DNA from: a virus
Lineage: Duplodnaviria > Caudoviricetes
Virus record (IMG/VR): IMGVR_UViG_3300033141_003139
Coordinates: 1-59,908 of that record
Strand: one strand, 5' to 3'
DNA: 59,908 bases
The translations under genes were made by a program, and so were the position numbers. This document shows positions 20,746-58,084 of the stretch, in pieces; position 1 is the stretch's first letter; every line of letters starts with the position of its first letter. The notes below the pieces were generated by a model. That model was not told the origin of the DNA. It was given only the letters and a program-made list of their open reading frames with translations, and searched no databases.

Positions 20746-21654
20746 ATGGCTAAACCAAAAATAATAAGTCTTACTTATAGTTCCCAGGACGCATTCTGGC
20801 ATTGTCCGATGAAGTACTACTGGAGTTACGAGGAACAAATAGCTACGTTAGTTCCAGCTGTCTACTTCGTGGTGGGTGGTGCAGGGCACGCTGGACTTGC
20901 CTCACTTCTTGCTAATAACAACGTAGAACTAGCTGAAAAGGCTGTCCAGAATTATTTTCGTGGTATACGCAAGTATGACCCTCCGTGGGATCCCACCAGG
21001 TATTGCCAGATGACACGAGCGTTGATACGGGCATACAGTCAGCAATACAGCCCCGTTCGTCTTGAAGAAGGTGAAGGACCTTTCAGCTTTGAACTAGGCG
21101 AAGTTGATGGGCATACGCTGGTCATTGAAGGACGCTTCGATGCTATCCAGAAAAAAGGTCGTAAACGTGAACTCATCGAGCACAAGTTCCTGGAATCGAC
21201 TTTACCAGATGACGAGGCATTGCTGTCGATGGATCGCCAGGTCACCACGTATATAATGGGAGCCAGGGAAGATCGCAACTGGAAGCTGTCAGGCGTTACT
21301 TATAACATTATATACAAGCCTAACATGTCATCTCGTACCAAGTGGACACGGCGGAAGGATAATGAAAGCTGGGAGCAGTATACCAATAGAATTGCCGAGC
21401 ATATTCTGAAATATCCTGGCAAGTACTTTGATCGAATACGAATGAAGAGGAACTCCAAGGATATTCAAGAACTTAAGCAGCATTATTTTTATACGGCTCA
21501 TCGTATCCTAAAATGTCGCCGTGACAAAACATGGGCCAAGCCATCCAGCATCTTTCGTTGTCGTTTCTGTGAATTCAAGCCGCTTTGCTTAGGACGGAAA
21601 GGAGCATCAAAGAAGTTTCGGAGAAAGACGGCGTTGCATGAGGAGCTAGAATGA
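20746..21654 (+). CDS. PD-(D/E)XK exonuclease (Cas4/AddB-like)
   Basis: CPMKYY, GRFDAI, IEHK, Q...Y and C-terminal CRFCEFKPLC. Confidence 0.85.
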   Translation: MAKPKIISLTYSSQDAFWHCPMKYYWSYEEQIATLVPAVYFVVGGAGHAGLASLLANNNVELAEKAVQNYFRGIRKYDPPWDPTRYCQMTRALIRAYSQQYSPVRLEEGEGPFSFELGEVDGHTLVIEGRFDAIQKKGRKRELIEHKFLESTLPDDEALLSMDRQVTTYIMGAREDRNWKLSGVTYNIIYKPNMSSRTKWTRRKDNESWEQYTNRIAEHILKYPGKYFDRIRMKRNSKDIQELKQHYFYTAHRILKCRRDKTWAKPSSIFRCRFCEFKPLCLGRKGASKKFRRKTALHEELE

Positions 21655-21878
21655 GTCAAAGCGATCTGCATATTATTGATAACTTGCTCTTAGCAATGCT
21701 ACAAACAGAAGAAACCCATGATATTGAAGTTCTTAAGCGGCATTGGGGTAGTTGCGTCTATGATGCACTTGACAGACTCCACGAAGCTTGGAACAGTAGA
21801 GAGATGAAATCTATTACTGCTACCTGGTCTATCTACTTCGCCAAGTTGGATGGGACCCCTTATGAAAGGCTGGAATAA
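21651..21878 (+). CDS. Hypothetical protein
   Basis: Coupled ORF. Confidence 0.5.
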   Translation: MSQSDLHIIDNLLLAMLQTEETHDIEVLKRHWGSCVYDALDRLHEAWNSREMKSITATWSIYFAKLDGTPYERLE

Positions 21879-21993
21879 TAGACATAATGACACCTGAACA
21901 TCCTCGTTGCTATAGAGAATGGGCATAAGGAGATAGCAAGACTATTAAGTACACACATGAAATACAGGAAGTTCCCTGATATAGGAGACCTGA

Positions 21994-22797
21994 ATGCCAA
22001 GACTTAAACTAGCAAAACCTGTCTTCGAGATACCAACGAAAATAACAGACTACCTTGTACTAATACACGGGGGCCCAGGCATCGGTAAAAGTTCTTTTGC
22101 TGCCCAAACGCCTGACCATTACATCTTCGACTTCGAGCATGGTTACAAGGCTCTGCCATATCGAGGCGAGTTCATCTCCAATGGATGGACTGGAGATGTA
22201 CCATCAGGTGCTCCCTTCGAGCATATGTGGGATGTGTTAGCCCTTTGTAAAGATGCCAAAGACATAACAACAATTATCATAGACCCAGCCGAAGCTTGGT
22301 TCGAGATGGTCTGTGCCTACGTTTGTTCAAATTCAGGGACTACTCACATTAACACAGGGCCCCTCAAATATGGCGTAGGATATAAATTCGCTTGCGATGA
22401 AATCCGTAATATATTAAACGAGACGCAAAACTTAGGCATGAACGTGCTTCTGGTGAGCCACTCCAGGGAGATTGAGATTGAAGAAGGAGATCTTAAGTAC
22501 TCCAAGTCCGTCCCTGATTTTCCCGCGTCAGCAAGGAAGGTGCTTATGGACCTTCCAGACTTGGTTCTTTACTTCGGCTGGGAACGGTTCGATGAAAAAG
22601 GAGAAGTTCTCGAAGAGCCAGAACGCCACATCTACGCACAACCATCTGAAGATTTCGAGGCGAAATCCCGTATCATGTCGTTTGAAGGTTGTAGCATGGG
22701 CAACAGCCCCCAGGAAGCCCGTGCTAACTTCGAGGCAGCATTCGAGAAAGCAATAAAGCAGGAACAAAAAGCCTGGGGTTCTAAAAGGAGGAAATAA
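21994..22797 (+). CDS. Sak4-like (AAA_24) recombination ATPase
   Basis: GGPGIGKS Walker A, DFEHG, IIID, LLVSH. Confidence 0.85.
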   Translation: MPRLKLAKPVFEIPTKITDYLVLIHGGPGIGKSSFAAQTPDHYIFDFEHGYKALPYRGEFISNGWTGDVPSGAPFEHMWDVLALCKDAKDITTIIIDPAEAWFEMVCAYVCSNSGTTHINTGPLKYGVGYKFACDEIRNILNETQNLGMNVLLVSHSREIEIEEGDLKYSKSVPDFPASARKVLMDLPDLVLYFGWERFDEKGEVLEEPERHIYAQPSEDFEAKSRIMSFEGCSMGNSPQEARANFEAAFEKAIKQEQKAWGSKRRK

Positions 22798-22800
22798 CCA

Positions 22801-23235
22801 ATGAAGAATAGGAACTTGGCACACAGCGACAATTGGGCTACACCAAAAGCATTGTACGATAAGCTGGACGCCGAGTTCCATTTCAACTTTGATCCTTGTC
22901 CGTTGCACGATGGTCCAATTGCTCCTGAACAAGATGGCCTGCTCATACCGTGGGGAACTCGGAACTTTATCAATCCGCCATACAGCCGAAAACTAAAGGA
23001 GGCATTTGTACACAAGGCTGTCGAAGAGGCCGCAAAAGGCAAACTATGTGTGATGTTACTACCAGTGAGTACTAGTACCGTGCTTTTCCACGAATGGATA
23101 CAGCCGAATGCAAGCGAGATTCGATTCTTAAGAGGCAGGGTAAAGTTTTCAGGTTATAATACCAAGGGTGAATGGGTGACGGACAAGGCAGGTATGCATG
23201 ATAGCATGGTTGTGATTTTTGATGGGAGGAAGTAA
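22801..23235 (+). CDS. Phage DNA N6-adenine methyltransferase (Dam-type)
   Basis: WATP, FDPC, FINPPY, IRFLRGRVKF. Confidence 0.85.
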   Translation: MKNRNLAHSDNWATPKALYDKLDAEFHFNFDPCPLHDGPIAPEQDGLLIPWGTRNFINPPYSRKLKEAFVHKAVEEAAKGKLCVMLLPVSTSTVLFHEWIQPNASEIRFLRGRVKFSGYNTKGEWVTDKAGMHDSMVVIFDGRK

Positions 23236-23432
23236 TGGAAGCAACGGTCGAAGGTAACGAGTTGACCTTGAAAATCCACCTGGCGAAGCTGGACGAGGCT
23301 CCGATTTCCAAGCAGGGTAAATCTCGTGTAGTAGCTTCATCACATGGATTTCAGCACTTGGTGGTCTATGAAGGAGCATCATTGGCCATCAATTACAATA
23401 TCACTGCTCCAATTACACAGAAAGGGCAATAG
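23235..23432 (+). CDS. Small conserved hypothetical protein
   Basis: SKQGKSRVVASSHG motif; coupled. Confidence 0.6.
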   Translation: MEATVEGNELTLKIHLAKLDEAPISKQGKSRVVASSHGFQHLVVYEGASLAINYNITAPITQKGQ

Positions 23433-23434
23433 AC

Positions 23435-23962
23435 ATGGCAAGACGTAGTTCAAAACCGAAGTCGGAATTTACTGGATTGACAGCGGCATGGAAGAAAACC
23501 AAGGCAAGAGAACGTCCTGACTTCACTGACCTGCCTGTAGGCTCTTACCAGTTTGAGATCACGAATGCTGAAGTCAAGGAGACCAAGGCTGGTAACTCGC
23601 TCCGGTTGTGGGCGACGTGCGTAGTTGTCGGTGGCGATTATGAAGGTCGCACCACGACTAAGAGCTGGACGCTGGCATCTATCGAATTGAAACCAGCTGG
23701 CCGTGGCAGTAAAACGAAGGTCAAGAGCTATGAATGGGACGAGATGGGCCTTGAATACCTGATGACCGACATGATTACGTTGGGCATCGCTGAAGACGAG
23801 AAAGATGCCCGCACGTTCGACCCCGCCACAGAAGTAGCAGAGGCAATGGTGGGATTGGTCTTCGATGGAGCTATCGTAGAAAGTAAGAAGGTCGACAGGG
23901 ATGGAAAGCCTTATCGTAACATTTACGTCAATGGCTTGGTAACTGAAGAGCATAGACTCTAA
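23435..23962 (+). CDS. DUF669-like single-stranded DNA-binding protein
   Basis: FTDLPVGSYQFEITNAEVKETKAG...GDYEGR; next to the Sak4-like gene. Confidence 0.75.
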   Translation: MARRSSKPKSEFTGLTAAWKKTKARERPDFTDLPVGSYQFEITNAEVKETKAGNSLRLWATCVVVGGDYEGRTTTKSWTLASIELKPAGRGSKTKVKSYEWDEMGLEYLMTDMITLGIAEDEKDARTFDPATEVAEAMVGLVFDGAIVESKKVDRDGKPYRNIYVNGLVTEEHRL

Positions 23963-23981
23963 GTCCAGTAACTTAAAAGGT

Positions 23982-24052
23982 GCCTGGGGCTTCTTCATTG
24001 CATTATCTCCTCGATGCAACAGACAAGAGAGAAGCCCCAGGCCATAGGAGAT
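23982..24052 (+). promoter_or_regulatory. Structured leader upstream of the queD-like gene
   Basis: 13-bp stem GCCTGGGGCTTCT/AGAAGCCCCAGGC; inner stem TTGCAT/ATGCAA; its loop ATCTCCT is complementary to AGGAGAT at the SD. Confidence 0.5.
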
Positions 24053-24057
24053 TATAT

Positions 24058-24411
24058 ATGCCGCCGTTATTCACGTTCAAAACAGAAACCACGTTTCAAG
24101 CTGCTCATGACATCGAAGGGATGCATGGTCATACCTGGAAGGTTGAAGCTACTTTTCTGTTCAGTGTGATCAACCCTGAGACTAATAAGGTAGCTGATTT
24201 CACGCTTTACAAGGAGGCCCTCGATAATGTAGCAAGAAAGGTTCATAATACTATTCTCAACGAAGCATTAGCAACAGCTCACCCTACCGCAGAGAAGCTC
24301 TGCTTGTGGTTCAGTGAGCAGCTTAAAGCAGAAGGTTATCCACCGCGTGAAGTGACTATTTACGAAGGAGATGAGTCCAGCGTATCGTATCGCATTGAAC
24401 GCTCTCTTTAG
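24058..24411 (+). CDS. queD: QueD/6-pyruvoyl-tetrahydropterin synthase-like T-fold protein
   Basis: FQAAH, HGHTW, DF, LNE, PTAE and VTIYE motifs. Confidence 0.8.
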   Translation: MPPLFTFKTETTFQAAHDIEGMHGHTWKVEATFLFSVINPETNKVADFTLYKEALDNVARKVHNTILNEALATAHPTAEKLCLWFSEQLKAEGYPPREVTIYEGDESSVSYRIERSL

Positions 24412-24681: not shown

Positions 24682-26550
24682 ATGGCTACTGATAATTTCG
24701 ACCTCGAAGAATTTGTCGCTTTTGATACTGAAACCACCGGCCTTAAGATGTGGCATCCACCAGGCGTCAGCGTCTTGACTTACTCGTCGAAGGACTGCTG
24801 TGGGAACGTTACTATTTCAGATAAGACCGAGGGTCTTTCACCTGAAAACCTTACCAGGTTGGTTAAGGAGACAGCCAGTTACAAAATGCCATTTGCGCAT
24901 AACTTAAAGTATGATCTGAGCGTGCTGGATGCCAATGGCGTAGACATTTCCTTGCTGGATCATGCTAACTGTACCATGCTGATGGCTCACCTTAGCAATG
25001 AGCACGAAGCATCACTACAGCAGGAAACCTTGTATGTAAGAAAACTAGGGCTTCCAGTAGATGATGCCGACGAGATGGACGCCTGGTTGAAAGAGCATGG
25101 TCTTACCAAGGGCGAAATGGTGAAAGTACCACCCAGGATACGCAAAAAATATGCAGTAGGCGACGTGCATCGTTGCTTGAGCCTGGGTGTACATTATGCT
25201 CCAATAATCAACCGCCGTGATTACAAGACTGAAATGCAAGTACTTCGTATTCTCATCAAAATGGAAAAGCGTGGCATCTTGCTAGACATATCTAAAGTCG
25301 AGGCTATTAGACAAAAGACACAACGGCAACTGGCCCGTCTTATCAGGAAATGGGGTCTTATTGACGCTGGTCCTTACTGGAAGCTCGAACGAGAATTACT
25401 CCACGAGGGATATAGCATCAAGAGAGCACGACAGAAAGCCAGTAACAAGATGAAGAAAGCTATCAACGACGCCGGTGGTATCAACCTGGGAAGTTCAGCA
25501 CAGGTTGGCAGCGTATTGCTCCAGGAGGGTTTCGCCCTTGAAGAGCTTCACAAAACTGAGACTGGAGCCATATCTGGTGCTGGTAAACACATGAAAGAAC
25601 TGGCACGACAGGGCAGCAAGGTAGCAAAAGCACGTATTGTTTACATGCAGTTAGGTAAATTACTAGGCACTTACCTTGACCAGTTGGAAGATGCTGCTGA
25701 TTGTAACTCGGTTATACATACCAACTACAACCAGACCGTGACTGTTACGGGCAGGTTGAGCAGTGATAACCCTAACCTGCAAAACGTGGCTACAGATGAA
25801 GGTCCTTACAAGGGAGTTCGTGAGCTATTTATATGCAGGCCAGGACACGAGTTGTTTTTTATCGACTATCGTGGCCTCCAGCTTAGGATTGCTGCTCATT
25901 ATGCCAGGGACGAGATCTTCCAGGATATTGTGTCTAATCATGACGATGTTCATGGAGCCGTAGCTAAAATGGTCGGATTGACGGGTAAGCGTGGTCGACT
26001 CCAAGCTAAAGGCGTAGTATTCGGCACCCTGTTCGGACGAACCCCTTACGGCTTATGGAAAGACCCATCATTAAAGCTGAAAAGCCTGGATGATGCAGAA
26101 CGACTCAGGGCTAAAGTACTAGGCTTCATGCCAGGGCTTGAGCGTAAGATACGAGAACTCCAAGAGGAATATGCTGCTTGTGGACACATTGAAGATGATT
26201 TTGGCAGGTTATACAGGCCGCTTGAACTAAAGGACTTGCTCGTGAACCTCGTTCAGGGTACTGAGGCAAGTCTCGTAAAGCGTGCCATGGTAAAGACTTA
26301 TCCAGTTGTAACAGACTTCGGTGGTCATACAATCCTGCAAATACACGACGAAATAGTATTCGAGGTGCCGATGAAAGGAAAGCGTCTTGCCAGTCGCCGC
26401 CGTAAAATAGCGACTGCACTAGGAGCCGCTATGGTAGAAGATGCACGACACCTGGAAGTACCATTAAAGGTACAAGTAAAAGTTACACAAACAAATTGGG
26501 CAGAGGCTGCAACCATATTACAATTTGATAGCAACAAAGGAGTATGTTAA
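24682..26550 (+). CDS. polA: Family A DNA polymerase with 3'-5' exonuclease
   Basis: FDTETTGL, HNLKYD, TGRLSSDNPNLQN, DYRGLQLR, AKGVVFG, IHDEIVFE. Confidence 0.95.
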   Translation: MATDNFDLEEFVAFDTETTGLKMWHPPGVSVLTYSSKDCCGNVTISDKTEGLSPENLTRLVKETASYKMPFAHNLKYDLSVLDANGVDISLLDHANCTMLMAHLSNEHEASLQQETLYVRKLGLPVDDADEMDAWLKEHGLTKGEMVKVPPRIRKKYAVGDVHRCLSLGVHYAPIINRRDYKTEMQVLRILIKMEKRGILLDISKVEAIRQKTQRQLARLIRKWGLIDAGPYWKLERELLHEGYSIKRARQKASNKMKKAINDAGGINLGSSAQVGSVLLQEGFALEELHKTETGAISGAGKHMKELARQGSKVAKARIVYMQLGKLLGTYLDQLEDAADCNSVIHTNYNQTVTVTGRLSSDNPNLQNVATDEGPYKGVRELFICRPGHELFFIDYRGLQLRIAAHYARDEIFQDIVSNHDDVHGAVAKMVGLTGKRGRLQAKGVVFGTLFGRTPYGLWKDPSLKLKSLDDAERLRAKVLGFMPGLERKIRELQEEYAACGHIEDDFGRLYRPLELKDLLVNLVQGTEASLVKRAMVKTYPVVTDFGGHTILQIHDEIVFEVPMKGKRLASRRRKIATALGAAMVEDARHLEVPLKVQVKVTQTNWAEAATILQFDSNKGVC

Positions 26551-26900
26551 TGTATTTAAGAGACTTGATAACTTTCCTGGAAGAAGAGGATCCAACTCGA
26601 ATATTACCAGTAGGATTCAAGCGTCCCCACAGTTACAGGGGAGACTACTCTGAACTTGCATTCCAGCCAGCCCTGAATGTATCGGTCAAGGACATGCTGG
26701 AGGATGCCAAGTCCGCTCTGGGTCGTGAGTTTACTGGTTACAAGGGAGGCGAATATAAAATGCATGAATACACAGAATGTTACCTGGCTCATTATGGCCG
26801 CACGGGAGGGTTGATCAGCCCAATACTTCTTGCTTTTATGTTGGGTAAAACACAAGATGAAATCGCTGAGATAGCCATGCGCACAGACTGGCTTTTGTAG
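26544..26900 (+). CDS. Conserved phage hypothetical protein
   Basis: PHSYRGDYSELAF and FTGYKGGEY motifs. Confidence 0.7.
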   Translation: MLMYLRDLITFLEEEDPTRILPVGFKRPHSYRGDYSELAFQPALNVSVKDMLEDAKSALGREFTGYKGGEYKMHEYTECYLAHYGRTGGLISPILLAFMLGKTQDEIAEIAMRTDWLL

Positions 26901-26918: not shown

Positions 26919-27536
26919 ATGAGCAACTTGAAATATCTTCGTAACTGGACAACAAGACTCCATAAGTGTGAAGCCTGTGAGTATCGAAGCCAGGCGTTAC
27001 GACCAGTGGGCACACGTGGTAATCCAGATAGCCCCGTAATGATAGTCGGTATGAACCCAGGTGTTACTGAGAACTGCAAGGGTATACCCTTCGTAGGGCC
27101 AGCAGGTCGAGAACTCGACAAGGTGCTGGCGTTCTGGGGTATTGAAGATCCTATCATTACTAACGTCTTGAACTGTTACGTTTATGATAACGCTATACTT
27201 ACACATGATGCAATGGACTTTTGCTCTAAGAAATGGTTACTGCCATTGATACGCAATCTCGATCCCAAACTGATTATAGGTCTTGGTGCCTGGGCAGCTG
27301 TTGAGTTATTAAAACATGCTGGCGAGACTGAGTTGGCTGCAAAGTCAGTAGGCAAACTTGCTGGCATGATGAAGCCGATTAAGCTCAAGGGCTGGCGCGG
27401 GTATCTTGCTATTACATATCATCCTGCCTACATGTTACGATCGAGAGGAAAAACTGGAGCTAAAGCTACCAACAAGTTCTGGGATGCAGTACGACAGTTA
27501 CGTTTGCCCATACAGGAATTACTACATGAAAGTTAA
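26919..27536 (+). CDS. Uracil-DNA glycosylase, family 4-like
   Basis: CEAC, VGMNPG, PFVGPAG, TNVLNC, TYHPAY. Confidence 0.9.
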   Translation: MSNLKYLRNWTTRLHKCEACEYRSQALRPVGTRGNPDSPVMIVGMNPGVTENCKGIPFVGPAGRELDKVLAFWGIEDPIITNVLNCYVYDNAILTHDAMDFCSKKWLLPLIRNLDPKLIIGLGAWAAVELLKHAGETELAAKSVGKLAGMMKPIKLKGWRGYLAITYHPAYMLRSRGKTGAKATNKFWDAVRQLRLPIQELLHES

Positions 27537-27816: not shown

Positions 27817-29058
27817 ATGCCTAGAGCCAGTCCCTATGTATCTTTTAAGAGGTCGCTAAGAGAGTTATTAGGTCTGAATCAGACCCTTTCCTTGCATTTC
27901 GACCTGGTAATTGCTACAATAGTAGCCAACCGCTGGCCTGGGGATCCATTATGGCTGATGCTGGTAGCTCCTCCTGCGTGGGGTAAGACACTGGCTTTAA
28001 GCTGTACGTACAATGCTTCTGACGAGGTATATCCTCTAACCAAGCTCACGCCTAGAACCCTCGTAAGTGGCTGGGGAGGTGAATATGGTGCTGACGACTG
28101 TTCGTTGATTCCAAAGATCAACGGCAAGGTACTCATGATAGAAGATTTTACCGTTATCATGTGTCTCCGGCATGAGACAATGCTGGAAATACTTTCACAG
28201 TTACGAGCAGCCTACGGCGGGAAGTTAGCCTACGAGTTCGGGACTGGTGCCCAACGTATTTATGACTGTAAGTTCGGACTGGTGGGAGCCGTGACCGACG
28301 TGATAGATACGCATGCAGCGACAATGCAACAGCTTGGTGAACGCTTCTTGAAGTATCGACTGAGAGGCATAGATATGCGGGATCGTATCTCCAGGGCCTT
28401 GGATCAAGCGCATGACAAAGATAACATAATAAAAACTATCACCGGTAAAGTAACAAAAATACTATCCCATGTGGAAAAGGATCCCCCAAAGGTTCCCTTG
28501 CGTTTGAGAGATCGCTTATTCGACATAGCAGGGGTAATAGGAGATTTACGTAGTGAGCCTTACATGGACAGAACCAGGGCCCAGGTAGTATACCGTCCTA
28601 TGCCTGAGTCTCCTCTTAGGTTGGCTTTGCAATTGCAGGCGTTGGCCAAAGGTCTGGCTGCTATTCGTTTGAAGGACAAGGTTACCATTACTGAAATAGA
28701 TGATTGTGCTAGGGTGGCTTGGGATACATTGTCAGGGAGAACTCAAGCTGTATTGCATGCCCTATGGGAGCCGGATGCAGATGGTTCTACTGCGTTATCT
28801 ACTGTGAAGATAGCTAGCAAAACACAGTTAGGCTATCAGGTAGTGCGTAACGACCTGGCGATGTTCCAGTCTATGGGGGCTGCTTACTACACGTCTGCAA
28901 AGGAGTTACGATCCTGTACTGATGAGCCTATACCTGGTAACGAAGGACTCTGGAAGATGAGTGAAGATTTACGTAAAGCATTCAGTCTCTACAATATACC
29001 CGTTGAGCTGGGTGCTCCCTGTGGTTCTTCTTTGAGACGACGATGGGTCAGAAAGTGA
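27817..29058 (+). CDS. AAA+ ATPase, putative replicative helicase
   Basis: Walker A APPAWGKT, Walker B LMIED, GERF Arg-finger-like motif; possible C-terminal winged helix. Confidence 0.65.
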   Translation: MPRASPYVSFKRSLRELLGLNQTLSLHFDLVIATIVANRWPGDPLWLMLVAPPAWGKTLALSCTYNASDEVYPLTKLTPRTLVSGWGGEYGADDCSLIPKINGKVLMIEDFTVIMCLRHETMLEILSQLRAAYGGKLAYEFGTGAQRIYDCKFGLVGAVTDVIDTHAATMQQLGERFLKYRLRGIDMRDRISRALDQAHDKDNIIKTITGKVTKILSHVEKDPPKVPLRLRDRLFDIAGVIGDLRSEPYMDRTRAQVVYRPMPESPLRLALQLQALAKGLAAIRLKDKVTITEIDDCARVAWDTLSGRTQAVLHALWEPDADGSTALSTVKIASKTQLGYQVVRNDLAMFQSMGAAYYTSAKELRSCTDEPIPGNEGLWKMSEDLRKAFSLYNIPVELGAPCGSSLRRRWVRK

Positions 29059-31078: not shown

Positions 31079-32131
31079 ATGGACAAACAATTACTTATGA
31101 TTTCTAAGCTGGTACATAAGGCGTTGATAAAACGCTATCTTGACAGGTACCGCATAATAGAATATTGTACAAACGAGATTGCTAACTTATCAAAACAGAT
31201 GGCTTGTAAAGGCCAACGTCACAAGCATTATTTAGCTCTCGAAGAGATTGACAACGCTACTAAAATTGCGTATGGCATTGCAAGTAGGACTAATACTTTA
31301 CAACGCTATACAGGGGATTTATCTTCAGCTTTATCCAGGCTGAAAGCCCCACGGGACCAACGTTATATCTACAAGGATTTAGTAGCCCTACAACAGGAGT
31401 TCGATGTTGTTGGTTACGATCATAACAGCCGGTGTTTAGGTGTTACTACTGAGCCTATAATTTTACATGGTATTAACCTGGGTCCGTTCAGCATTGAATT
31501 GATGATAGACGCCCTTCCCTGTCCTGATGATTCATGTTGTTGTAGAGTCGTAGCATTGTCCCCTAATCCTTCATCTTGTAATGAGTATGTAACCCATCCG
31601 CACGTAGAAGAAGAGACGATTTGCCTTGGCCAAGCGAAACAAGCTGTTGCTGAAGCGCTGGACGATAGTCGTATACTAGATGTATTCATGCTTATTGCAG
31701 GAGTACTACGCAACTATAACAGTGATTCTCCTTTCGTGAAACTGGAAAACTGGTATGGTGAACCCTGTTATAATTGCGGCGCTATTTGTGATAATAACTC
31801 TGAACTTCACACATGTGAATTTTGCGAGCATTTATTTTGCCCTGATTGTATAGGCACATGCGGATATTGTTCAGCGAGCGTATGTGTAAATTGCATGGAA
31901 TACTGCAACACTTGTGAAGAGTATTACTGTTCCAACTGCGTTTGTGTGTGTCCTCATTGTGAGAGACCTGTTTGTACTGCCTGTTTAGAAGGTGACGGCT
32001 GTGTATGCCAGGAGGAGTCTGAAAATGTTCAACAAGTGGCTTCAGTTCAAGAAAGAACCCAAGGTGTTGCCACCCAAGACGTTCAAGCAGCAAGTGGACA
32101 CTGGACGATCCAGTATCGTCCTGCAACCTAA
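31079..32131 (+). CDS. Prokaryotic E2-like conjugating protein with C-terminal CxxC repeats
   Basis: HPHVEEETICLG (E2 HPN...C-like); many CxxC pairs; lies between Ubl and JAB. Confidence 0.7.
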   Translation: MDKQLLMISKLVHKALIKRYLDRYRIIEYCTNEIANLSKQMACKGQRHKHYLALEEIDNATKIAYGIASRTNTLQRYTGDLSSALSRLKAPRDQRYIYKDLVALQQEFDVVGYDHNSRCLGVTTEPIILHGINLGPFSIELMIDALPCPDDSCCCRVVALSPNPSSCNEYVTHPHVEEETICLGQAKQAVAEALDDSRILDVFMLIAGVLRNYNSDSPFVKLENWYGEPCYNCGAICDNNSELHTCEFCEHLFCPDCIGTCGYCSASVCVNCMEYCNTCEEYYCSNCVCVCPHCERPVCTACLEGDGCVCQEESENVQQVASVQERTQGVATQDVQAASGHWTIQYRPAT

Positions 32132-32141
32132 AGGAGCACAC

Positions 32142-32942
32142 ATGAAGAAAATGAACGATACTATCCTGCGGTTTACACCTACGGCCTGGGCCAAGCTCTT
32201 GTTTTTCAGGGATCTCGGCAAAACAGAAATAGGTGGCTTTGGTATAACGAAACCAGATGACCTTCTGTTGGTCACCGATTTTGTTACTGTTAAACAGAAT
32301 GTTAGCATGGCCAGTGTAAAATTTGATGATACAGCTGTTGCTGACTTTTTTGAAGACCAGGTGGCTGCCGGTCGTCATCCAAGAGAATTCGCACGTATAT
32401 GGGTGCACACCCATCCGATGATGAGTCCTTCGCCCAGTGGAGTAGACGAGGAAACTTTCGAGCGTGTGTTTGGTAGTTGTGATTGGGCTATTATGTTCAT
32501 AATAAGCTCTACTTCTAAAACCTACTGCAAGTTGTATCTCAACGTTGGGCTGAGTATTGCTATTGACATCCCAGTTGAGGTCAGCTATACAAATGAATTC
32601 GGCCCTAGTGATTTTGCCGCCTGGAAAGCAGAGTACGAGGCTAATATATGCAAGGAAGTCTACAGCATCAGCAAGAAACATACTAGTAAAGTATTCAAGG
32701 ACGGCATTTGGAGTGAGGAACCAGGATCACTTGACGATGAAATTTTTGATGATGATGACGATGATGATGATGATGATACAATTGACGTTGCCGAAGGGTT
32801 GGTTATCAATGAACAATACGATGATGAACCTCCCATGGAATGGGCTGAAGAACTAGAGGCAATGACCGAAGAAGAACGAGCTGAATTCTTGCAGGATCTA
32901 TATGATTATCCAGACGAATTAAGGAGTAGCAAATGGATGTAA
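32142..32942 (+). CDS. JAB/MPN metalloprotease (alternative start at 32025)
   Basis: EIGGFG...WVHTHP..SPSPSGVD JAMM motif; acidic tail. Confidence 0.85.
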   Translation: MKKMNDTILRFTPTAWAKLLFFRDLGKTEIGGFGITKPDDLLLVTDFVTVKQNVSMASVKFDDTAVADFFEDQVAAGRHPREFARIWVHTHPMMSPSPSGVDEETFERVFGSCDWAIMFIISSTSKTYCKLYLNVGLSIAIDIPVEVSYTNEFGPSDFAAWKAEYEANICKEVYSISKKHTSKVFKDGIWSEEPGSLDDEIFDDDDDDDDDDTIDVAEGLVINEQYDDEPPMEWAEELEAMTEEERAEFLQDLYDYPDELRSSKWM

Positions 32943-33598
32943 TAGCAGATGAACGTTATAGCAGGCAAGCTGACATAATCCCAGCTGAAAAACTGGATGA
33001 AATAAAGCCCACTGTTATAGGGGTTGGAGCCATAGGCAGGCAGGTTGCATTGCAACTTGCAGCAATCGGAGTGAGTAGTCTCCAATTGATTGACCATGAC
33101 ACAGTAGAAGAAAGCAATATAGCCAGCCAGGGTTTTTATGAGACGGATATGTCCTGCTGGAAGGTTGATGCTGTAAAGCATACATGTACAAGCATCAATT
33201 GCCTGCTGCAAGTGGAAGCGAAGCATGAGCGTTTCAAACGCAGTCATACCGTGGGCAACATTGTATTTTGTTGTGTTGATGATATACAGACACGTAAGAT
33301 GGTAAATGATGTTGTCCACGCTGACTTATTTATTGATGGCCGCATGTCAGCTGAAGTGCTCAGGGTTCTAACTGTATGGGACTTCAAGACGAATGATTAC
33401 TACAAGGGAACGTTATTTACTTCAGAAGAGGCTTATGCTGGTTCATGCACGGCCAAGACGACTATTTACTGTGCAAATATAGCAGCGGCCTTGATGGTAT
33501 CCCAGTTGACCAAGTGGTTGCGAAGGATACCACTTGAACGAGATTTTACATTGAATATACTAACGAATGAACTTACGCTGGGAAATCCAGAAGGATAA
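32933..33598 (+). CDS. ThiF/E1-like activating enzyme
   Basis: RYSRQ, GVGAIG, DHDTVEESNIASQ, CVDDIQTR, DGRM, GSCT. Confidence 0.92.
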   Translation: MDVIADERYSRQADIIPAEKLDEIKPTVIGVGAIGRQVALQLAAIGVSSLQLIDHDTVEESNIASQGFYETDMSCWKVDAVKHTCTSINCLLQVEAKHERFKRSHTVGNIVFCCVDDIQTRKMVNDVVHADLFIDGRMSAEVLRVLTVWDFKTNDYYKGTLFTSEEAYAGSCTAKTTIYCANIAAALMVSQLTKWLRRIPLERDFTLNILTNELTLGNPEG

Positions 33599-34042: not shown

Positions 34043-34315
34043 ATGAATTACTTTGCGTGGTATGGCACTGTATTGGGCAATGACGGGCATACTCTTGGCC
34101 ACACGGTCAACGGTCAAGTTGTCCGAGCATCGGCCCGCATCCCGCTGGGTCGCTGGCTGTGGCTCGCTGAATCACGACGATCATGGCGTAACATGACAAT
34201 GAAGGAAACCGTTGAATGCGTGGGGGAATATTATCGGTGGACTCATCCTGAGATTGATTGGGAACATTACGATTGGGAGCAATACAGTAAGAAACAGAAG
34301 GAGAAGTATCATTAA
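34043..34315 (+). CDS. Hypothetical protein
   Basis: Purine-rich RBS region upstream. Confidence 0.5.
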   Translation: MNYFAWYGTVLGNDGHTLGHTVNGQVVRASARIPLGRWLWLAESRRSWRNMTMKETVECVGEYYRWTHPEIDWEHYDWEQYSKKQKEKYH

Positions 34316-35114
34316 CATTAACCTGAACGTCCTCAAAGCTGAACCAGCTAAAGAATACTATGCCAAGGCAGGCGAATATCTCACCAGCCCACAATTGCTG
34401 GATTTTATGAAGTGTCCTTGGCTGTACCACAAGAAGCAGCTCGGTCTAATAGCTGAAGAGTACACGTCCGTACTACTGATCGATAGTGCCGCTCGCTGTC
34501 GGATTCTCGAAGGTCGGGACGCCTATGAGGCACAGTTCGCTTTCGATGGCCCCATCGATCCCAAGACGAACAAACCCTTCGATTCGAAAATAAAGGCCTT
34601 CGCTGAGTGGGCACATGCCCAAGGTAAACCCGTGCTGCCGCACGATCAGGCCGAACTCATCGAGCAGATGGCTTCCGGCGTCGCCATGAACGACGAGGCT
34701 GTTGACCTGCTGCTGTATGGCCGAGCTGAAGGCGTTGTTCGTGCTGAGTATTGTGGTGTGCCGTGTCAGATTCGCATTGATTGGATGCATCCACAGCGAG
34801 GTATTGTGGATTTCAAGACTTGCGATGACCTGACGTGGTTCGAGGCGGATGCCAGGCGTTACGGCTACCACTGGCAGATGGCGTTCTACCGTGCTATCCT
34901 CGCCCAACCTCTCGACGGTTTACTGGTGCCGGTTCATCTCGTCGCAGTCGAGAAGAAAGAACCCTTCCGCTGTGGTGTGTGGAGTGTCAGCGATGACACG
35001 CTGGCCATCGCCCAACGCGAGAACGAGGCGGCGATCCGTCGACTGGTGAATTGTCGTAAGCAAGATCATTGGCCAACCGGCTACGAGGAGGTCCGCATCC
35101 TCGACATTGCATGA
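34308..35114 (+). CDS. PD-(D/E)XK exonuclease VIII-like (DUF3799-type) protein; start uncertain
   Basis: CQIRIDW, IVDFKT, YHWQMAFY, AVEKKEPF. Confidence 0.8.
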   Translation: MININLNVLKAEPAKEYYAKAGEYLTSPQLLDFMKCPWLYHKKQLGLIAEEYTSVLLIDSAARCRILEGRDAYEAQFAFDGPIDPKTNKPFDSKIKAFAEWAHAQGKPVLPHDQAELIEQMASGVAMNDEAVDLLLYGRAEGVVRAEYCGVPCQIRIDWMHPQRGIVDFKTCDDLTWFEADARRYGYHWQMAFYRAILAQPLDGLLVPVHLVAVEKKEPFRCGVWSVSDDTLAIAQRENEAAIRRLVNCRKQDHWPTGYEEVRILDIA

Positions 35115-35163
35115 ATCTTTGAACATGGTTAATATTAAAACTCTAACTTCGAGGAGATTGACA

Positions 35164-35865
35164 ATGGCTAACCTGAATGGATTTGACGCACGCACTGTTG
35201 AACCTGCTGTTGCTATTGATCTTGAACCGATCCCTGCTGGCAAGTATATTGCTGCGATCACCGAAAGCGAGATGAAACCTACCAAGAGCGGATCAGGCAG
35301 TTATCTCCAACTGTCCTTCACCATCCTGAAAGGCGAGTACAAGAACCGTGTCCTCGGGGCGCGGCTGAACCTTTATAGTCCTAATGCCACGGTAGTCGAG
35401 AACGCACGAGCGGAACTGTCGGCGATCTGTCACGCGGTCGGTGTATTGACGCCGAAGGACTCAGTAGAACTTCATAACTTGCCGCTAATAATCACGGTCA
35501 AGATTGTAAAGCGTTTCGATACAGGTGACTTGGTCAATGAGATTATAGGCTACGCCGAAAGGAAAGTTGCGGTCCATCAGATTCAGCGGACTTTTCCTGC
35601 TGATGACGTCGAAAAGGTTGATACAGAGAGTGTATGCACTTGTAAGATGCTTCCCTCTGATTATATGATCGATAAGATGCAAGCTGACGGATATGTTTTG
35701 ATGAATGCGTTTGTTGATCGCTTCGGTCTCTATGATTTGACTTTTCATCGTTGGGATAACGGTGATATTATTTCAGTAGACAGTGCTGAGACGTGGCGAG
35801 ATGCAATCTGTAATATATATGCAAAATTCTTGAAAAGTAGGAGTACCACTGATGGCAGAGAATGA
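35164..35865 (+). CDS. Second DUF669-like SSB with an unrelated C-terminal extension
   Basis: MANLNGFDA..EP..IPAGKY..SEMKPTKSGSGSYLQL; GAGGAG RBS. Confidence 0.8.
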   Translation: MANLNGFDARTVEPAVAIDLEPIPAGKYIAAITESEMKPTKSGSGSYLQLSFTILKGEYKNRVLGARLNLYSPNATVVENARAELSAICHAVGVLTPKDSVELHNLPLIITVKIVKRFDTGDLVNEIIGYAERKVAVHQIQRTFPADDVEKVDTESVCTCKMLPSDYMIDKMQADGYVLMNAFVDRFGLYDLTFHRWDNGDIISVDSAETWRDAICNIYAKFLKSRSTTDGRE

Positions 35866-36993: not shown

Positions 36994-37411
36994 AACGAAA
37001 GCAAAATGGAACTTGATAAAATATGAGTTTAAGATGCTGCGTGCAACAGCAGAAAACATTCACGGAACGGGCGATTATCAACAGCCACAGTTGAATGCCT
37101 TCCTTGAGTCATTCTTGATTCATGCTCGTAACTTGATCACATTGTTTTTCATCGAAGGAAAAGGTGATGATATTACGGCAAGAGATTTCTTGAGCGACAA
37201 AGGTCAAGCTGAATGGGCAGACTATAGCCTTCGCTCTGGCCTTAGAAAACAGTATTTATGTAAATTACTTCGCCCAATCAATAAAAGGCTTGCTCACATA
37301 ACCAGCTACAGATTGAAGCATTCAGACAAAGAGTGGTTCACATGGGATATTTGGCTTAATATTTCTTATTACTGGGACAAGTTTTTGTCGATCAAAGGAG
37401 AAGAAAAATGA
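36980..37411 (+). CDS. All-helical protein, possibly HEPN-like
   Basis: ESFLIHARNL...INKRLAHIT. Confidence 0.5.
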   Translation: MTKNETKAKWNLIKYEFKMLRATAENIHGTGDYQQPQLNAFLESFLIHARNLITLFFIEGKGDDITARDFLSDKGQAEWADYSLRSGLRKQYLCKLLRPINKRLAHITSYRLKHSDKEWFTWDIWLNISYYWDKFLSIKGEEK

Positions 37412-37860
37412 GCATTATAAATAGATTCAGAGGCAAGTACAGTTTTCTCTCTAACTTTGCTGCCGCCGATGTAGAATTAGATGGTAAGATATATCGGACG
37501 GTAGAACATGCATACCAAGCAGCTAAAACTTGTGATCCTTTTATTCGTTTCGAGATTAGAACTCAACCGACGCCTGCTGATGCCAGGCGACTTGGTCGTA
37601 AGGTTAAACTACGCGATGACTGGGAGTCAAGAAGACTTCAAGTCATGCGAGATTTGCTTTACAAGAAGTTTCAGAGAGCGGATTTGAAGGAACTGCTGTT
37701 ATCAACTGGTGACAGTGAACTTGTAGAAGGCAACTACTGGCATGATAACTATTGGGGTTCGTGTGAATGTTTCAAATGTTCTACTTGTTTGCACCAAAAT
37801 CATCTTGGGAAGTTGTTAATGGAAGTTAGGACACAACTCAGGAGGAGCACAAATGGCTAA
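37408..37860 (+). CDS. NADAR family protein
   Basis: FLSNF, TVEHAYQAAK, ARRLGR, LLSTGD, WHDNYWG, NHLGKLLMEVR. Confidence 0.92.
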   Translation: MSIINRFRGKYSFLSNFAAADVELDGKIYRTVEHAYQAAKTCDPFIRFEIRTQPTPADARRLGRKVKLRDDWESRRLQVMRDLLYKKFQRADLKELLLSTGDSELVEGNYWHDNYWGSCECFKCSTCLHQNHLGKLLMEVRTQLRRSTNG

Positions 37861-38152
37861 GTATCGAAAGAAACCAGTAATCGTCGAAGCAGAGCAATTT
37901 CTTCCTCCGCATAACTGGCCTGAGTGTGTTGAACCTCTGATAGTTTATCGTGGCGTAAGTTCTGCATTATGCGAGGAATGCCACCTTCGTTTCAGCGAGT
38001 CAGAACATGGATGGATATGTACCCGCGAAGGTCTACGAATTGTCTGTCCAGGAGATTGGATTATTACTGGTGTTGAGGGCGAGAAATATCCTTGTAAACC
38101 TCGTATCTTCAGGAAGTCATACGAGCTTGTTGAAGAAGGAGAGAGCGAATGA
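37853..38152 (+). CDS. Conserved phage protein (PGDWII motif)
   Basis: KYRKKPVIVEAEQ..PGDWIITGVEGEKYPCKP. Confidence 0.8.
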   Translation: MAKYRKKPVIVEAEQFLPPHNWPECVEPLIVYRGVSSALCEECHLRFSESEHGWICTREGLRIVCPGDWIITGVEGEKYPCKPRIFRKSYELVEEGESE

Positions 38153-38739
38153 ATTTACTTATATTGGTCACCGTTTCGCTTATAGGAAATGCAATGGATT
38201 TTCGTCATGACGTAAACGGCGATTGTGTAGTGAATGTTCTTGACATCATGGTAATAAGAGCTAACTTAGGCAGAGAAGGAAGTAGTATCGTCCCTACAAC
38301 AGCTGATGTTAATAGAGATGGCGTCTGTAATATGGTCGACTTATTGGCAGTGAGAAGCCAACTTGGAACCTTGTTAGAGAGGGTGTCCGTCTCAGAAGAA
38401 GATCATCGGCCTTTCTATTTCATCAGTGCTTATGAGAGCGGTAGCAAGGTGAGGCGTCTTTGGCATCCAGAACATCGCAACATCCTTTGTTATGTAGGTC
38501 AAGAACTGCCTCTTGTATGGAGCAGACAGTATTTATCTCCTGTGGTAGTTGAGGGAGTGAGATTTTGGTTGAATGACGCAGACGGTCCAGCATTGTTCGC
38601 TTCGATAGAGAATGCAGAGAAACTAATCAAAGTCTATGCCTGGCACAATAAGGCAGATATGTATGAAGTGCAAGAACTTAGAGTAGTGTCTCGTTGGAAG
38701 ATTACAAGAGACATGGGATTTACATATCCCTGGGATTGA
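38149..38739 (+). CDS. Secreted protein with a dockerin-like domain
   Basis: N-terminal hydrophobic signal; paired DVNGDCVVNVLD and DVNRDGVCNMVD Ca-loop repeats. Confidence 0.75.
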   Translation: MNLLILVTVSLIGNAMDFRHDVNGDCVVNVLDIMVIRANLGREGSSIVPTTADVNRDGVCNMVDLLAVRSQLGTLLERVSVSEEDHRPFYFISAYESGSKVRRLWHPEHRNILCYVGQELPLVWSRQYLSPVVVEGVRFWLNDADGPALFASIENAEKLIKVYAWHNKADMYEVQELRVVSRWKITRDMGFTYPWD

Positions 38740-41432: not shown

Positions 41433-41501
41433 TACGAAGGGAACAAACATGAGTAAGAACAAGAAGTCTTACAAGGAAGGTTGTTGCATAAGGAGAACTG
41501 T

Positions 41502-48875: not shown

Positions 48876-48891
48876 TTACAAGGGAGAAAGT

Positions 48892-50896: not shown

Positions 50897-50916
50897 TTGA
50901 AAAAAGGGAGAAGATA

Positions 50917-58082: not shown

Positions 58083-58084
58083 TC

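What the first reader, a model, noticed from the sequence alone, without database searches (positions are those of the whole stretch)
25864..26037. PolA with steric-gate Glu replaced by Gln plus a Y766F-equivalent change
Seen: motif A is DYRGLQLR (canonical DYSQIELR) and motif B is RLQAKGVVFGTLFG (canonical RxxAKxxNFGxxYG). Motif C (HDE) and the exonuclease motifs are intact. Established: E. coli Pol I E710 is the rNTP steric gate and contacts Y766. Inference: the paired change suggests an adapted active site, with relaxed sugar selection, self-priming or use of a modified nucleotide, rather than decay. This is notable because no primase is visible.
Basis: partly seen in the sequence, partly recalled or inferred. 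Interest (0 to 1): 0.7.

Follow-up and report, generated by a model that had tools for sequence, protein, structure and literature searches.

The report
Phage DNA polymerase with Gln/Phe pocket
This phage's only DNA polymerase carries glutamine and phenylalanine where almost all relatives have a glutamate-tyrosine pair, and the same paired swap recurs in many uncultivated phage polymerases, so it looks like a working alternative design and not damage.

Summary
ORF 24682-26550 (+, 622 aa) is a full-length family-A DNA polymerase with Gln400 (CAG 25879-25881) at the Glu710 "steric gate" and Phe451 (TTC 26032-26034) at Tyr766. All other polymerase and proofreading residues are present. None of 268 nearest homologs has Gln there.

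The swap is not unique. A DNA-pattern scan found Gln-gate PolAs in viral, metagenome and genome collections: 62 distinct sequences, 20 Q/F and 42 Q/Y. A sample chosen only by homology to the neighbouring helicase gave 70 PolAs: 48 E/Y, 16 Q/F, 5 E/F, 1 E/N and 0 Q/Y. That requires at least 4-6 switches on the tree.

Q/F is kept across 39% core identity with synonymous codon turnover, so it is selected.

Four small bacterial genomes have a Gln-gate Pol I as their only PolA.

Other Q/F PolAs sit beside Toprim primase-helicases. No neighbouring gene tracks the Q/F state, and this genome has no PurZ, DpdA, QueC or FolE.

Most likely this is an ordinary, active replicative polymerase using a neutral Gln/Phe alternative to the Glu-Tyr pair. 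The suggestions of relaxed sugar selection, self-priming or modified nucleotides are unsupported. I found no description of this natural variant in the papers I searched.

The parts
24682..26550 (+). PolA gene: 622-aa family-A DNA polymerase with a 3'-5' exonuclease domain. It is the only PolA in the complete 59.9-kb virus record.
24724..24732 (+). Exo I motif Asp15-Thr-Glu17
   Evidence: translation; near-invariant columns
24901..24915 (+). Exo II motif Asn74..Asp78 (NLKYD)
25150..25164 (+). Exo III motif Tyr157..Asp161 (YAVGD)
25864..25887 (+). Motif A DYRGLQLR: catalytic Asp395; Gln400 (CAG 25879-25881) replaces the steric-gate Glu
25996..26037 (+). Motif B / O-helix RLQAKGVVFGTLFG: Arg439, Lys443 and Phe447 are kept; Phe451 (TTC 26032-26034) replaces the Tyr partner
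26344..26352 (+). Motif C His555-Asp556-Glu557
26544..26900 (+). 118-aa ORF of unknown function (phrog_12889), overlapping the PolA stop
26919..27536 (+). Family-4-like uracil-DNA glycosylase encoded in trans of PolA. It scores below the NCBIfam cut-offs.
27817..29058 (+). 413-aa P-loop helicase module. It is homologous to the C-terminal halves of Zn-ribbon/Toprim primase-helicases that follow PolA in related phages. Here it has no primase domain.
20746..24411 (+). Upstream replication/recombination genes: PD-(D/E)XK exonuclease 20746-21654, Sak4-like AAA_24 21994-22797, Dam methylase 22801-23235, DUF669 SSB-like 23435-23962, QueD/PTPS-like 23980-24411

Best explanation
The gene encodes the phage's own active, proofreading, DNA-templated replicative DNA polymerase. 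Its nucleotide pocket uses an uncharged Gln400/Phe451 pair in place of the hydrogen-bonded Glu/Tyr pair. This is one of two alternative natural states of that pair.

Shown here:
- E/Y and Q/F interconvert repeatedly in phage PolAs.
- Q/F is then held by purifying selection.
- Tyr->Phe is the only other core-domain position that tracks Glu->Gln.

Inferred:
- Gln has the same size and shape as Glu, so it still fills the space under C2' of the incoming sugar. Ribonucleotide exclusion is therefore probably retained.
- Without the buried carboxylate, the Tyr hydroxyl that pairs with it is no longer needed, so Phe is tolerated or preferred. E/F forms are plausible intermediates, because Y766F is near wild type in Klenow fragment.
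- The expected consequences are quantitative (dNTP affinity, fingers-closing equilibrium, fidelity) and not a new chemistry.
- Priming is left to something else: the host primase, recombination-dependent initiation through the Sak4/exonuclease/SSB-like genes, or an unrecognised phage protein.
For: Integrity:
- All other catalytic and exonuclease residues are present.
- The AlphaFold model has mean pLDDT 91.2 and pTM 0.91, with blocks around residues 390-460 at 93-98.
- The model matches Bst/Klenow large fragments over the full length (TMq 0.76-0.77, TMt 0.78-0.83 among the top 20 Bst/Klenow rows).
- It is the only PolA in a virus record rated 100% complete with terminal repeats, and it sits inside a replication module.

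Recurrence:
- A DNA pattern for D-Y-x-x-h-Q-h-R-h-h-A-H found 6 of 6 IMG/VR hits to be full PolAs, all Q+F.
- The same pattern found 56 PolA ORFs among 87 pattern-bearing ORFs from the metagenome and IMG/VR loci: 27 Q/F, 28 Q/Y and 1 truncated.
- It found 31 PolAs among 61 genome-collection matches.
- Pooled, there are 62 distinct sequences below 90% core identity. They form 16 groups at 45% identity: 12 Q/F, 4 Q/Y, none mixed.

Unbiased sample: loci were chosen by helicase homology only. Of 80 loci, 70 have a PolA: 48 E/Y, 16 Q/F, 5 E/F, 1 E/N and 0 Q/Y. The tree needs 6 gate changes, at least 4 of them forced by well-supported branches. One well-supported shallow clade mixes E/Y, E/F and Q/F.

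Coupling:
- With a Glu gate, Phe occurs in 6 of 118 covered viral PolAs and in 5 of 54 in the helicase-linked sample.
- Fisher tests gave p = 2e-7 and 8e-12. These ignore phylogeny.
- A column scan found only the Tyr column tracking Gln, in 7 of 11 Q lineages.

Selection: one Q/F clade spans down to 39% core identity and uses both CAA and CAG for Gln and both TTT and TTC for Phe.

Compatibility with function: in four 0.8-1.0 Mb bacterial genomes the Gln-gate Pol I is the only PF00476 match.

Literature: Klenow Y766F resembles wild type (PMC3715850, passages and Table 1).
Against: In Klenow fragment, E710Q alone is a mutator. Its overall dTTP affinity is about 280-fold weaker (Kd2 230 vs 0.83 uM) and it has a 'low incorporation rate' (PMC3715850; the kinetic supplement was not seen). 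A Gln gate is therefore not neutral in every background, and no Q/F enzyme has been assayed.

The window PolA sits on a very long branch (1.6-2.2 substitutions per column). It differs at 7 of 46 columns that are at least 95% conserved, and only 10 of 268 homologs differ at as many. One of the 7 (Asn at aa 521) is probably a one-residue alignment shift, judging by the HMMER alignment.

It has no relative above about 34% identity, so purifying selection on this particular gene cannot be measured.

The codons could not be verified in reads.

Retention of sugar discrimination is inferred from side-chain geometry, not measured.

The independent-pairs test has only 4 well-supported pairs (p = 0.125, the minimum possible for 4).
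Confidence: 0.65

Rival explanations
1. Altered nucleotide-sugar selection. The Q/F pocket relaxes or re-tunes discrimination at the 2' or 3' position, so the enzyme incorporates ribonucleotides or sugar-modified nucleotides more readily than E/Y polymerases do.
For: Both residues lie at the sugar-selecting floor of the pocket (PMC3715850; PMC10201439 passage on positions A2 and B4). The paired change is specific: no other column co-varies.
Against: Gln keeps the bulk of Glu. Klenow E710Q closes on rUTP no better than wild type (K2 0.056 vs 0.083; Table 1 of PMC3715850). Four reduced bacterial genomes rely on a Gln-gate Pol I as their sole PolA. No accessory gene tracks the state.
Confidence: 0.12
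2. A lower-fidelity or slower polymerase. The Gln gate weakens discrimination between correct and incorrect dNTPs, as E710Q does in Klenow fragment. The phage tolerates this or exploits it, partly covered by its intact proofreading.
For: E710Q is one of three 'mutator' substitutions in Klenow, with poor closing on the correct dNTP. The proofreading residues are all retained. The gene is on a long branch.
Against: Q/F is conserved over deep divergence in other lineages. It alternates with E/Y among close relatives that share the same neighbours. The co-substitution to Phe suggests compensation, not plain loss.
Confidence: 0.1
3. Adaptation to a base-modified genome, as in DpoZ of 2-aminoadenine phages, which also carry Phe at the Tyr position.
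For: PMC10201439 states that Phe at B4 is a substitution unique to both DpoZ clusters. A QueD-like gene, a Dam methylase and a UDG-like gene flank PolA.
Against: Six-frame searches found no Adenylsucc_synt (PurZ), TGT (DpdA), QueC or GTP cyclohydrolase I in the complete genome. QueD alone makes no known DNA base. The paper itself judges the Phe unlikely to affect A/Z choice. No modification gene tracks Q/F in 71 loci.
Confidence: 0.05
4. A self-priming polymerase that replaces the missing primase.
For: No primase family is detectable in the complete genome. The helicase lacks the primase domain that its relatives carry.
Against: Q/F PolAs in other phages are followed by Zn-ribbon/Toprim primase-helicase fusions: L007 700 aa and L009 609 aa by Pfam, and L008, L031, L062 and L084 (676-703 aa) with a Cys-rich N-terminus. 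The two traits are therefore unlinked. Many ORFs here remain unassigned and could hide a primase.
Confidence: 0.03
5. Assembly or sequencing error at two codons.
For: Each change is a single base away from the canonical codon (GAG->CAG, TAC->TTC). Reads covering the sites were not available.
Against: Two independent errors would have to hit exactly the two partner residues. The same pair is found in dozens of other assemblies.
Confidence: 0.02

Closest known systems
[quoted passage not shown] 2013, PMC3715850; passages and Table 1 read, supplement not seen)
   Same: Same fold and the same two positions. The window enzyme is in effect a natural E710Q+Y766F double substitution on an otherwise complete active site.
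   Different: Only about 22-23% identical in the structural alignment. The mutants were studied singly: E710Q is impaired and mutagenic, and Y766F is near wild type. The double combination in a natural background has not been assayed in anything I read.
DpoZ polymerases of 2-aminoadenine (ZTGC) phages, clusters 18 and 19 of Czernecki et al. 2023 (PMC10201439; passages read, the Figure 3 logos are not held)
   Same: Phage PolA with intact proofreading and Phe at motif B position B4.
   Different: That paper describes the Phe as the unique substitution and does not mention a changed A2 residue. This genome lacks PurZ. The window PolA is not placed with any described cluster here.
Canonical E/Y PolAs of uncultivated phages that carry the same helicase family downstream (for example loci L270, L275, L285, L286)
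   Same: Same gene order, PolA then helicase. The helicase is 27-39% identical to the window's (best segment). The motif A context is similar: DYRGIELR in L270 against DYRGLQLR here.
   Different: They keep Glu and Tyr. Their PolAs are only about 25% identical to the window's. Most of their helicases were not checked for a primase domain.
Gln-gate bacterial Pol I of small genomes, in MAGs titled Alphaproteobacteria/Rickettsiales and Patescibacteria (loci L216, L228, L209, L257)
   Same: Gln at the steric gate in an otherwise canonical PolA that is the only PolA of its genome.
   Different: Full-length enzymes of about 915-945 aa, taken to include the 5' nuclease domain from their length (not scanned for it). 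They retain the Tyr partner (Q/Y). They are cellular, not viral.

Membership tests
Family A DNA polymerase (PolA) | Match to Pfam DNA_pol_A above the gathering score | tested here: met
   198.2 bits against a 34.3 cut-off, covering 370 of 381 profile positions; 198.1 bits in the six-frame search
Family A DNA polymerase (PolA) | Catalytic carboxylates: motif A Asp and motif C Asp-Glu | tested here: met
   Asp395 and His555-Asp556-Glu557
Family A DNA polymerase (PolA) | O-helix Arg, Lys and aromatic residue (B1-B3) | tested here: met
   Arg439, Lys443 and Phe447
Family A DNA polymerase (PolA) | Near-invariant (not catalytic) Glu at A2 hydrogen-bonded to Tyr at B4 | tested here: not met
   Gln400 and Phe451. 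The same departure is seen in many other PolAs, so it does not exclude membership.
Family A DNA polymerase (PolA) | Klenow-like fold with thumb, fingers, palm and 3'-5' exonuclease domain | tested here: met
   Model pLDDT 91.2; full-length Foldseek matches to Bst and Klenow large fragments, E 1e-30, TMq 0.76-0.77
Family A DNA polymerase (PolA) | Proofreading residues of Exo I, II and III | tested here: met
   Asp15/Glu17, Asn74/Asp78 and Tyr157/Asp161. Pfam exo1 scores only 22.5 bits against a 23.6 cut-off.
DpoZ (2-aminoadenine-specific PolA) | Phe at motif B position B4 | tested here: met
   Phe451; criterion taken from PMC10201439
DpoZ (2-aminoadenine-specific PolA) | PurZ (adenylosuccinate-synthetase homolog) in the same genome | tested here: not met
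   0 matches to PF00709 at E<=1 in the complete record
divPolA1 / divPolA2 (Yutin et al. 2024, PMC11188092 passages) | Truncated or missing thumb, dead or missing exonuclease, and a second 'regular' polymerase in the genome | tested here: not met
   Full-length fold, exonuclease residues present, only one PolA match in the genome. PolB and PolC families were not searched as such; Pfam scans of about 49 of the larger ORFs found no other polymerase.
Zn-ribbon/Toprim primase-helicase of phages (for the neighbouring 413-aa gene) | Helicase module homologous to the family | tested here: met
   tblastn 26-32% identity, E down to 4e-34, to the ORFs downstream of PolA in L031, L009, L062, L007 and others; atlas structure TM 0.82-0.85
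Zn-ribbon/Toprim primase-helicase of phages (for the neighbouring 413-aa gene) | N-terminal Toprim primase domain | tested here: not met
   The window protein aligns only to residues 327-625 of the L007 protein and 155-474 of the L009 protein. There is no Toprim_2 match anywhere in the genome.

The most novel reading that the evidence does not exclude
The Gln/Phe pocket defines a functionally distinct class of natural family-A replicases with re-tuned sugar or nucleotide selection, for example tolerance of ribonucleotides or of 2'/3'-modified nucleotides, or a different fidelity set-point. Uncultivated phages switch into and out of this class repeatedly. The window enzyme would be a highly diverged member that works without a phage primase.
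Probability: 0.15. Interest if true: 0.8.

Novelty: new variant of a known kind. Interest (0 to 1): 0.55.

Why it matters
The Glu-Tyr pair is treated as invariant in family-A polymerases. [quoted passage not shown] The pair is central to models of sugar discrimination and fidelity, and mutating the Glu to Gln cripples Klenow fragment.

This work found that nature uses a Gln/Phe alternative repeatedly:
- about one in five PolAs of one phage replication-module family have it;
- several reduced bacteria use a Gln/Tyr form in their only Pol I.

That gives a ready-made set of natural enzymes and close E/Y-Q/F pairs. They can be used to test what the carboxylate and the hydrogen bond actually contribute, and whether Tyr->Phe rescues Glu->Gln. 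It may also be useful for polymerase engineering.

For this particular phage the practical message is more modest. The polymerase is probably ordinary in function, and the missing primase is a separate question.

Tried and rejected
- Read check of the two codons. One run (X1) held 9% of the sampled words. When laid, it gave only a 209-nt contig at 26087-26295 (3 differences) and a 37-nt piece, neither covering the motifs. No conclusion.
- Close relatives of the window PolA. tblastn against 50,697 phage records gave 3471 matches, all under 60% identity, with the listed ones at or below 27.3%. The word-indexed search of 5.8 billion proteins found the best non-self full-length hits at about 30%. 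The exhaustive search of representatives found the best non-self hit at 197 bits, 31%. A search of residues 383-460 returned only the query among 7 candidates.
- The search for related loci with the single proteins from L001 and L005 returned only themselves and one 80% relative.
- tblastn of the L001 and L005 PolAs against the phage records found nothing above about 26% among the listed rows.
- Is the window's Q/F independent of the large Q/F clade? BLAST and both trees place the window nearer to E/Y sequences. The AU test does not reject uniting it with that clade (p-AU 0.377; some searches were unfinished runs of the same test). Left open.
- A hidden Toprim domain. Two weak tblastn hits (E 0.26 and 6.7) fall on a 77-aa ORF at 41481-41714. 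It is too short and too weak, so I rejected it as a primase.
- Accessory genes that track Q/F. The only enriched families come from one near-identical lineage.
- Other co-varying columns: none beyond the Tyr position.
- Astatke et al. 1998 (PMC19848) is not held.
- Our-findings look-ups gave nothing on this genome or on this variant.
- Literature on a natural Gln gate. Searches, and passages of PMC10201439, PMC12926913, PMC11188092 and PMC13697223, show no description of it. Figures and supplements were not visible.
Full report
**What is there.**
The window is a complete virus record: 59,908 bases, a 114-nt exact terminal repeat, and a 100% completeness rating. All large ORFs lie on the + strand.

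ORF 24682-26550 encodes a 622-aa protein. It matches Pfam DNA_pol_A at 2.6e-58 and PHROG 17 'DNA polymerase' at 1.4e-75. It is the only PolA match in the genome.

Read directly:
- Motif A is DYRGLQLR (25864-25887), with Gln400 = CAG at 25879-25881.
- Motif B is RLQAKGVVFGTLFG (25996-26037), with Phe451 = TTC at 26032-26034.

HMMER aligns these two residues with the Glu of Taq motif A and the Tyr that ends Taq motif B.

The following are all present:
- Asp395, Arg439, Lys443 and Phe447.
- His555-Asp556-Glu557.
- The exonuclease residues Asp15/Glu17, Asn74/Asp78 and Tyr157/Asp161.

An AlphaFold model built on 50 sequences has mean pLDDT 91.2 and pTM 0.91, with 93-98 around the two motifs. It superposes over its full length on Bst and Klenow large fragments (E 1e-30, TMq 0.76-0.77).

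**How unusual it is among near relatives.**
The protein is an orphan.
- Against 50,697 phage records, every one of 3471 matching records is below 60% identity, and the listed rows are at or below 27.3%.
- In the 5.8-billion-protein index the best full-length hits are about 30% identical.
- In the exhaustive representative library the best non-self hit scores 197 bits at 31%.
- A search restricted to residues 383-460 returned only the query among 7 candidates.

In a MAFFT alignment of the query with 268 of these homologs, the gate column is E 265, D 3, Q 1 (the query), and the Tyr column is Y 264, F 5.

The query differs from consensus at 7 of 46 columns that are at least 95% conserved. Only 10 of 268 homologs differ at as many. 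One of the 7 (Asn near residue 521) is probably a one-residue alignment shift, judging.

**It is not unique: pattern scans.**
I back-translated D-Y-x-x-h-Q-h-R-h-h-A-H into a degenerate DNA pattern. The window itself does not match this pattern because it reads R-I-A-A-H, so all counts below are lower bounds.

- IMG/VR: 6 stretches matched. All 6 are full PolA ORFs with exonuclease motifs and HDE, and all 6 have Gln plus Phe.
- Metagenome collection: 78 stretches matched. Together with the IMG/VR loci this gave 87 ORFs. Of these, 56 are PolA by hmmsearch and 31 are chance matches. The 56 are 27 Q/F, 28 Q/Y and 1 truncated.
- Genome collection: 61 stretches matched, of which 31 are PolA: 24 Q/Y and 7 Q/F.
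- Pooled: 62 distinct sequences below 90% core identity (20 Q/F, 42 Q/Y). At 45% identity they form 16 groups: 12 Q/F and 4 Q/Y, with no mixed group.

The Q/Y forms fall into two kinds:
- Full-length bacterial Pol I.
- A clade of about 570-610 aa whose motif C reads HDG or HDS.

The Q/F forms are phage-like PolAs of about 530-770 aa, plus HDS paralogs in Desulfobacterota MAGs.

As a control, I ran the same pattern with Glu in IMG/VR. All 120 are PolA: 111 E/Y, 6 E/F, 1 E/N and 2 not covering motif B.

**An unbiased sample.**
tblastn of the window's neighbouring proteins against all fetched loci showed that the 413-aa protein downstream (27817-29058) has homologs only beside Q/F PolAs. It had none in the 120 Glu-pattern loci, although only 49 of those have at least 4 kb downstream.

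I then aligned six of these helicases (A1) and searched IMG/VR with the alignment. There were 128 relatives, and the best 80 loci were kept. This sample was chosen without reference to the polymerase.

- 70 of the 80 loci carry a PolA just upstream on the same strand.
- Their states are 48 E/Y, 16 Q/F, 5 E/F, 1 E/N and 0 Q/Y.
- After removing near-duplicates and adding the window, there are 59 sequences: 42 E/Y, 12 Q/F, 4 E/F and 1 E/N.
- On a FastTree built without the two trait columns, the gate needs 6 changes. At least 4 are forced by branches with support of 95 or more.
- One well-supported shallow clade mixes E/Y (L270, L275, L285, L286, L280, L278, L284), E/F (L283) and Q/F (L293, L297, L292).
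- All 4 independent pairs on supported branches show Phe moving with Gln. The sign test gives p = 0.125, which is the minimum possible for 4 pairs.
- Fisher tests that ignore phylogeny give 2e-7 for the IMG/VR pattern scans and 8e-12 for the helicase-anchored sample.

**Evidence of selection and specificity.**
- The largest Q/F clade is supported at 99.
- It spans core identities down to 39%.
- It uses both CAA and CAG for Gln and both TTT and TTC for Phe. The amino acids, not the codons, are what is conserved.
- A scan of all core-domain columns that are at least 80% conserved among 104 Glu-gate sequences found only the Tyr column tracking the Gln gate. It did so in 7 of 11 Q lineages.
- In four small bacterial genomes (0.8-1.0 Mb) the Gln-gate Pol I is the only PF00476 match. 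A 10-Mb Desulfomonilaceae genome has 7 matches.

*Primase.* Six-frame searches of the complete genome found no Prim-Pol, Toprim_2, Zn_ribbon_DnaG or DNA_primase_S at E<=1. The 413-aa protein is a helicase module.
- Its predicted structure matches the C-terminal halves of viral proteins of about 700 aa. Those proteins belong to clusters that carry Toprim or Prim-Pol domains (TM 0.82-0.85).
- In the Q/F loci L007 and L009, the ORF after PolA is a 700-aa and a 609-aa protein with a Toprim_2 domain. The window protein aligns only to their C-terminal parts.
- L008, L031, L062 and L084 have forms of 676-703 aa with a Cys-rich N-terminus. L006, like the window, has a standalone form of 451 aa.

So the absence of a visible primase is real at profile level, but Q/F polymerases elsewhere have a primase next door. 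The two traits are unlinked.

*Modified bases.* There is no Adenylsucc_synt (PurZ), TGT (DpdA), QueC or GTP cyclohydrolase I. The QueD-like gene at 23980-24411 stands alone and scores below the NCBIfam cut-offs. Across 71 loci no gene family within about 6 kb tracks the Q state, apart from families private to one near-identical lineage. UDG-like genes occur in 1 of 17 Q loci and 5 of 54 E loci.

*Sugar selection.* In Klenow fragment, E710Q binds and closes on rUTP no better than wild type, and Y766F behaves like wild type (Table 1 and text of PMC3715850).

**What the literature says.**
- Hohlbein et al. [quoted passage not shown] They report E710Q as a mutator with Kd2 230 uM against 0.83 uM for wild type and a low incorporation rate. 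The kinetic supplement was not available to me.
- Czernecki et al. 2023 state that crucial catalytic residues are strictly conserved in all 19 PolA clusters. They also state that Phe at B4 is a substitution unique to the two DpoZ clusters. The passages I read mention no Gln at A2, and the logos of their Figure 3 are not held.
- Missoury et al. 2026 note that UDGs encoded in trans of phage PolAs are common.
- I found no description of a natural Gln gate in four searches or in passages of PMC12926913 and PMC11188092.

**Placement of the window enzyme.**
- BLAST puts it nearer to E/Y sequences P0121-P0124 (28-30% identity, E down to 1e-61) than to any Q/F sequence.
- It is only about 25% identical to the helicase-linked PolAs.
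- An IQ-TREE with a mixture model places it in a group of short E/Y PolAs, with an E/F sequence as sister. Support is 90, below the star threshold.
- Its branch is very long, and the AU test does not reject joining it to the large Q/F clade (p-AU 0.377).
- Whether the window's Q/F arose independently is therefore open. That Q/F arose several times overall is well supported.

**Conclusion.**
The most likely reading (about 0.65) is that this is a working, proofreading, DNA-templated replicase that uses a neutral Gln/Phe version of the Glu-Tyr pocket floor.
- Gln keeps the steric block under the sugar.
- Phe follows, or precedes, the loss of the carboxylate.
- The effects are probably on affinity, closing and fidelity, not on chemistry.

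These three mechanistic steps are inference. The recurrence, coupling and conservation are shown. The rivals remain possible at low probability and are all testable with standard enzymology:
- altered sugar selectivity;
- a lower-fidelity enzyme;
- modified-base use;
- self-priming;
- sequence error.

Noticed in passing
window 27817-29058: The replicative helicase is a standalone 413-aa module. Its relatives in other phages are mostly fused to an N-terminal Zn-ribbon/Toprim primase (676-703 aa). No primase of four common families is detectable anywhere in this complete genome.
   Followed up: partly
window 1-114 and 59795-59908: An exact 114-nt direct repeat at the two ends fits a complete, circularly assembled or terminally redundant genome of 59,794 bp. 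The ORF open at the 3' end (58019-59908) probably continues into 1-1287.
   Followed up: partly
L014, L021, L025, L032, L044, L056, L072, L074, L075, L087 (metagenome); L225, L240, L263, L215, L232, L239, L211, L229, L268 (genomes): A clade of PolA paralogs of about 515-610 aa, found in metagenome contigs and, among titled genome records, largely in Desulfobacterota MAGs. They have a Gln gate, and motif C reads HDG or HDS instead of HDE. One 10-Mb genome has 7 PolA matches including a canonical Pol I.
   Followed up: partly
L216, L228, L209, L257 and their genomes G001-G004: Small bacterial genomes (0.8-1.0 Mb; MAGs titled Alphaproteobacteria, Rickettsiales, Patescibacteria) whose only PolA is a full-length Pol I with Gln at the steric gate and Tyr retained. 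Many of them have Ser in place of the Gly that follows the motif B Phe.
   Followed up: partly
window 26919-27536: A family-4-like UDG sits beside PolA. It scores far below the NCBIfam cut-offs (92.6 vs 250 bits). Its first motif reads GMNPG where I recall GE(A/G)PG for active family-4 enzymes, so it may be non-catalytic or divergent. Four Cys residues that could hold an Fe-S cluster are present.
   Followed up: no
window 23980-24411: A lone QueD/PTPS-like gene sits directly upstream of PolA. The genome has no FolE, QueC or TGT/DpdA.
   Followed up: partly
window 31992-33598: Adjacent JAB-like (weak, 19.8 bits) and ThiF/E1-like (7.4e-23) genes inside the early region.
   Followed up: no
window 37408-37860 and 38149-38739: A NADAR-domain protein (3.4e-27) and a 196-aa protein with a type I dockerin domain (5.5e-13). 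A dockerin is unusual in a phage and may hint at the host.
   Followed up: no
window 48832-51792: A fused glycosyltransferase-like plus methyltransferase ORF (470 aa) and a GT2-like ORF (303 aa) lie directly after the Mu-type portal gene, inside the head module.
   Followed up: no
window 20746-21654 / 34212-35114 and 23435-23962 / 35107-35865: There are two PD-(D/E)XK nucleases and two DUF669 SSB-like genes, so the recombination genes appear to be duplicated as a pair.
   Followed up: no
window 41481-41714 and 41811-42098: Two small neighbouring ORFs share a 'V-I-C-x-x-x-E-x-x-A-L' stretch. This stretch gave weak tblastn hits to the start of Toprim domains (E 0.26 and 6.7).
   Followed up: partly
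window 24970-24972 (aa 97), 25645-25647 (aa 322): The PolA has other departures from columns that are at least 95% conserved: Cys97 where 97% have Asp (exonuclease domain, 'DTM' context) and Met322 where 97% have Arg.
   Followed up: no
window 26087-26295: A 209-nt low-depth contig with 3 differences occurs in one public run that the tool labels a hydrothermal vent metagenome. A close relative of this phage may therefore exist elsewhere.
   Followed up: partly
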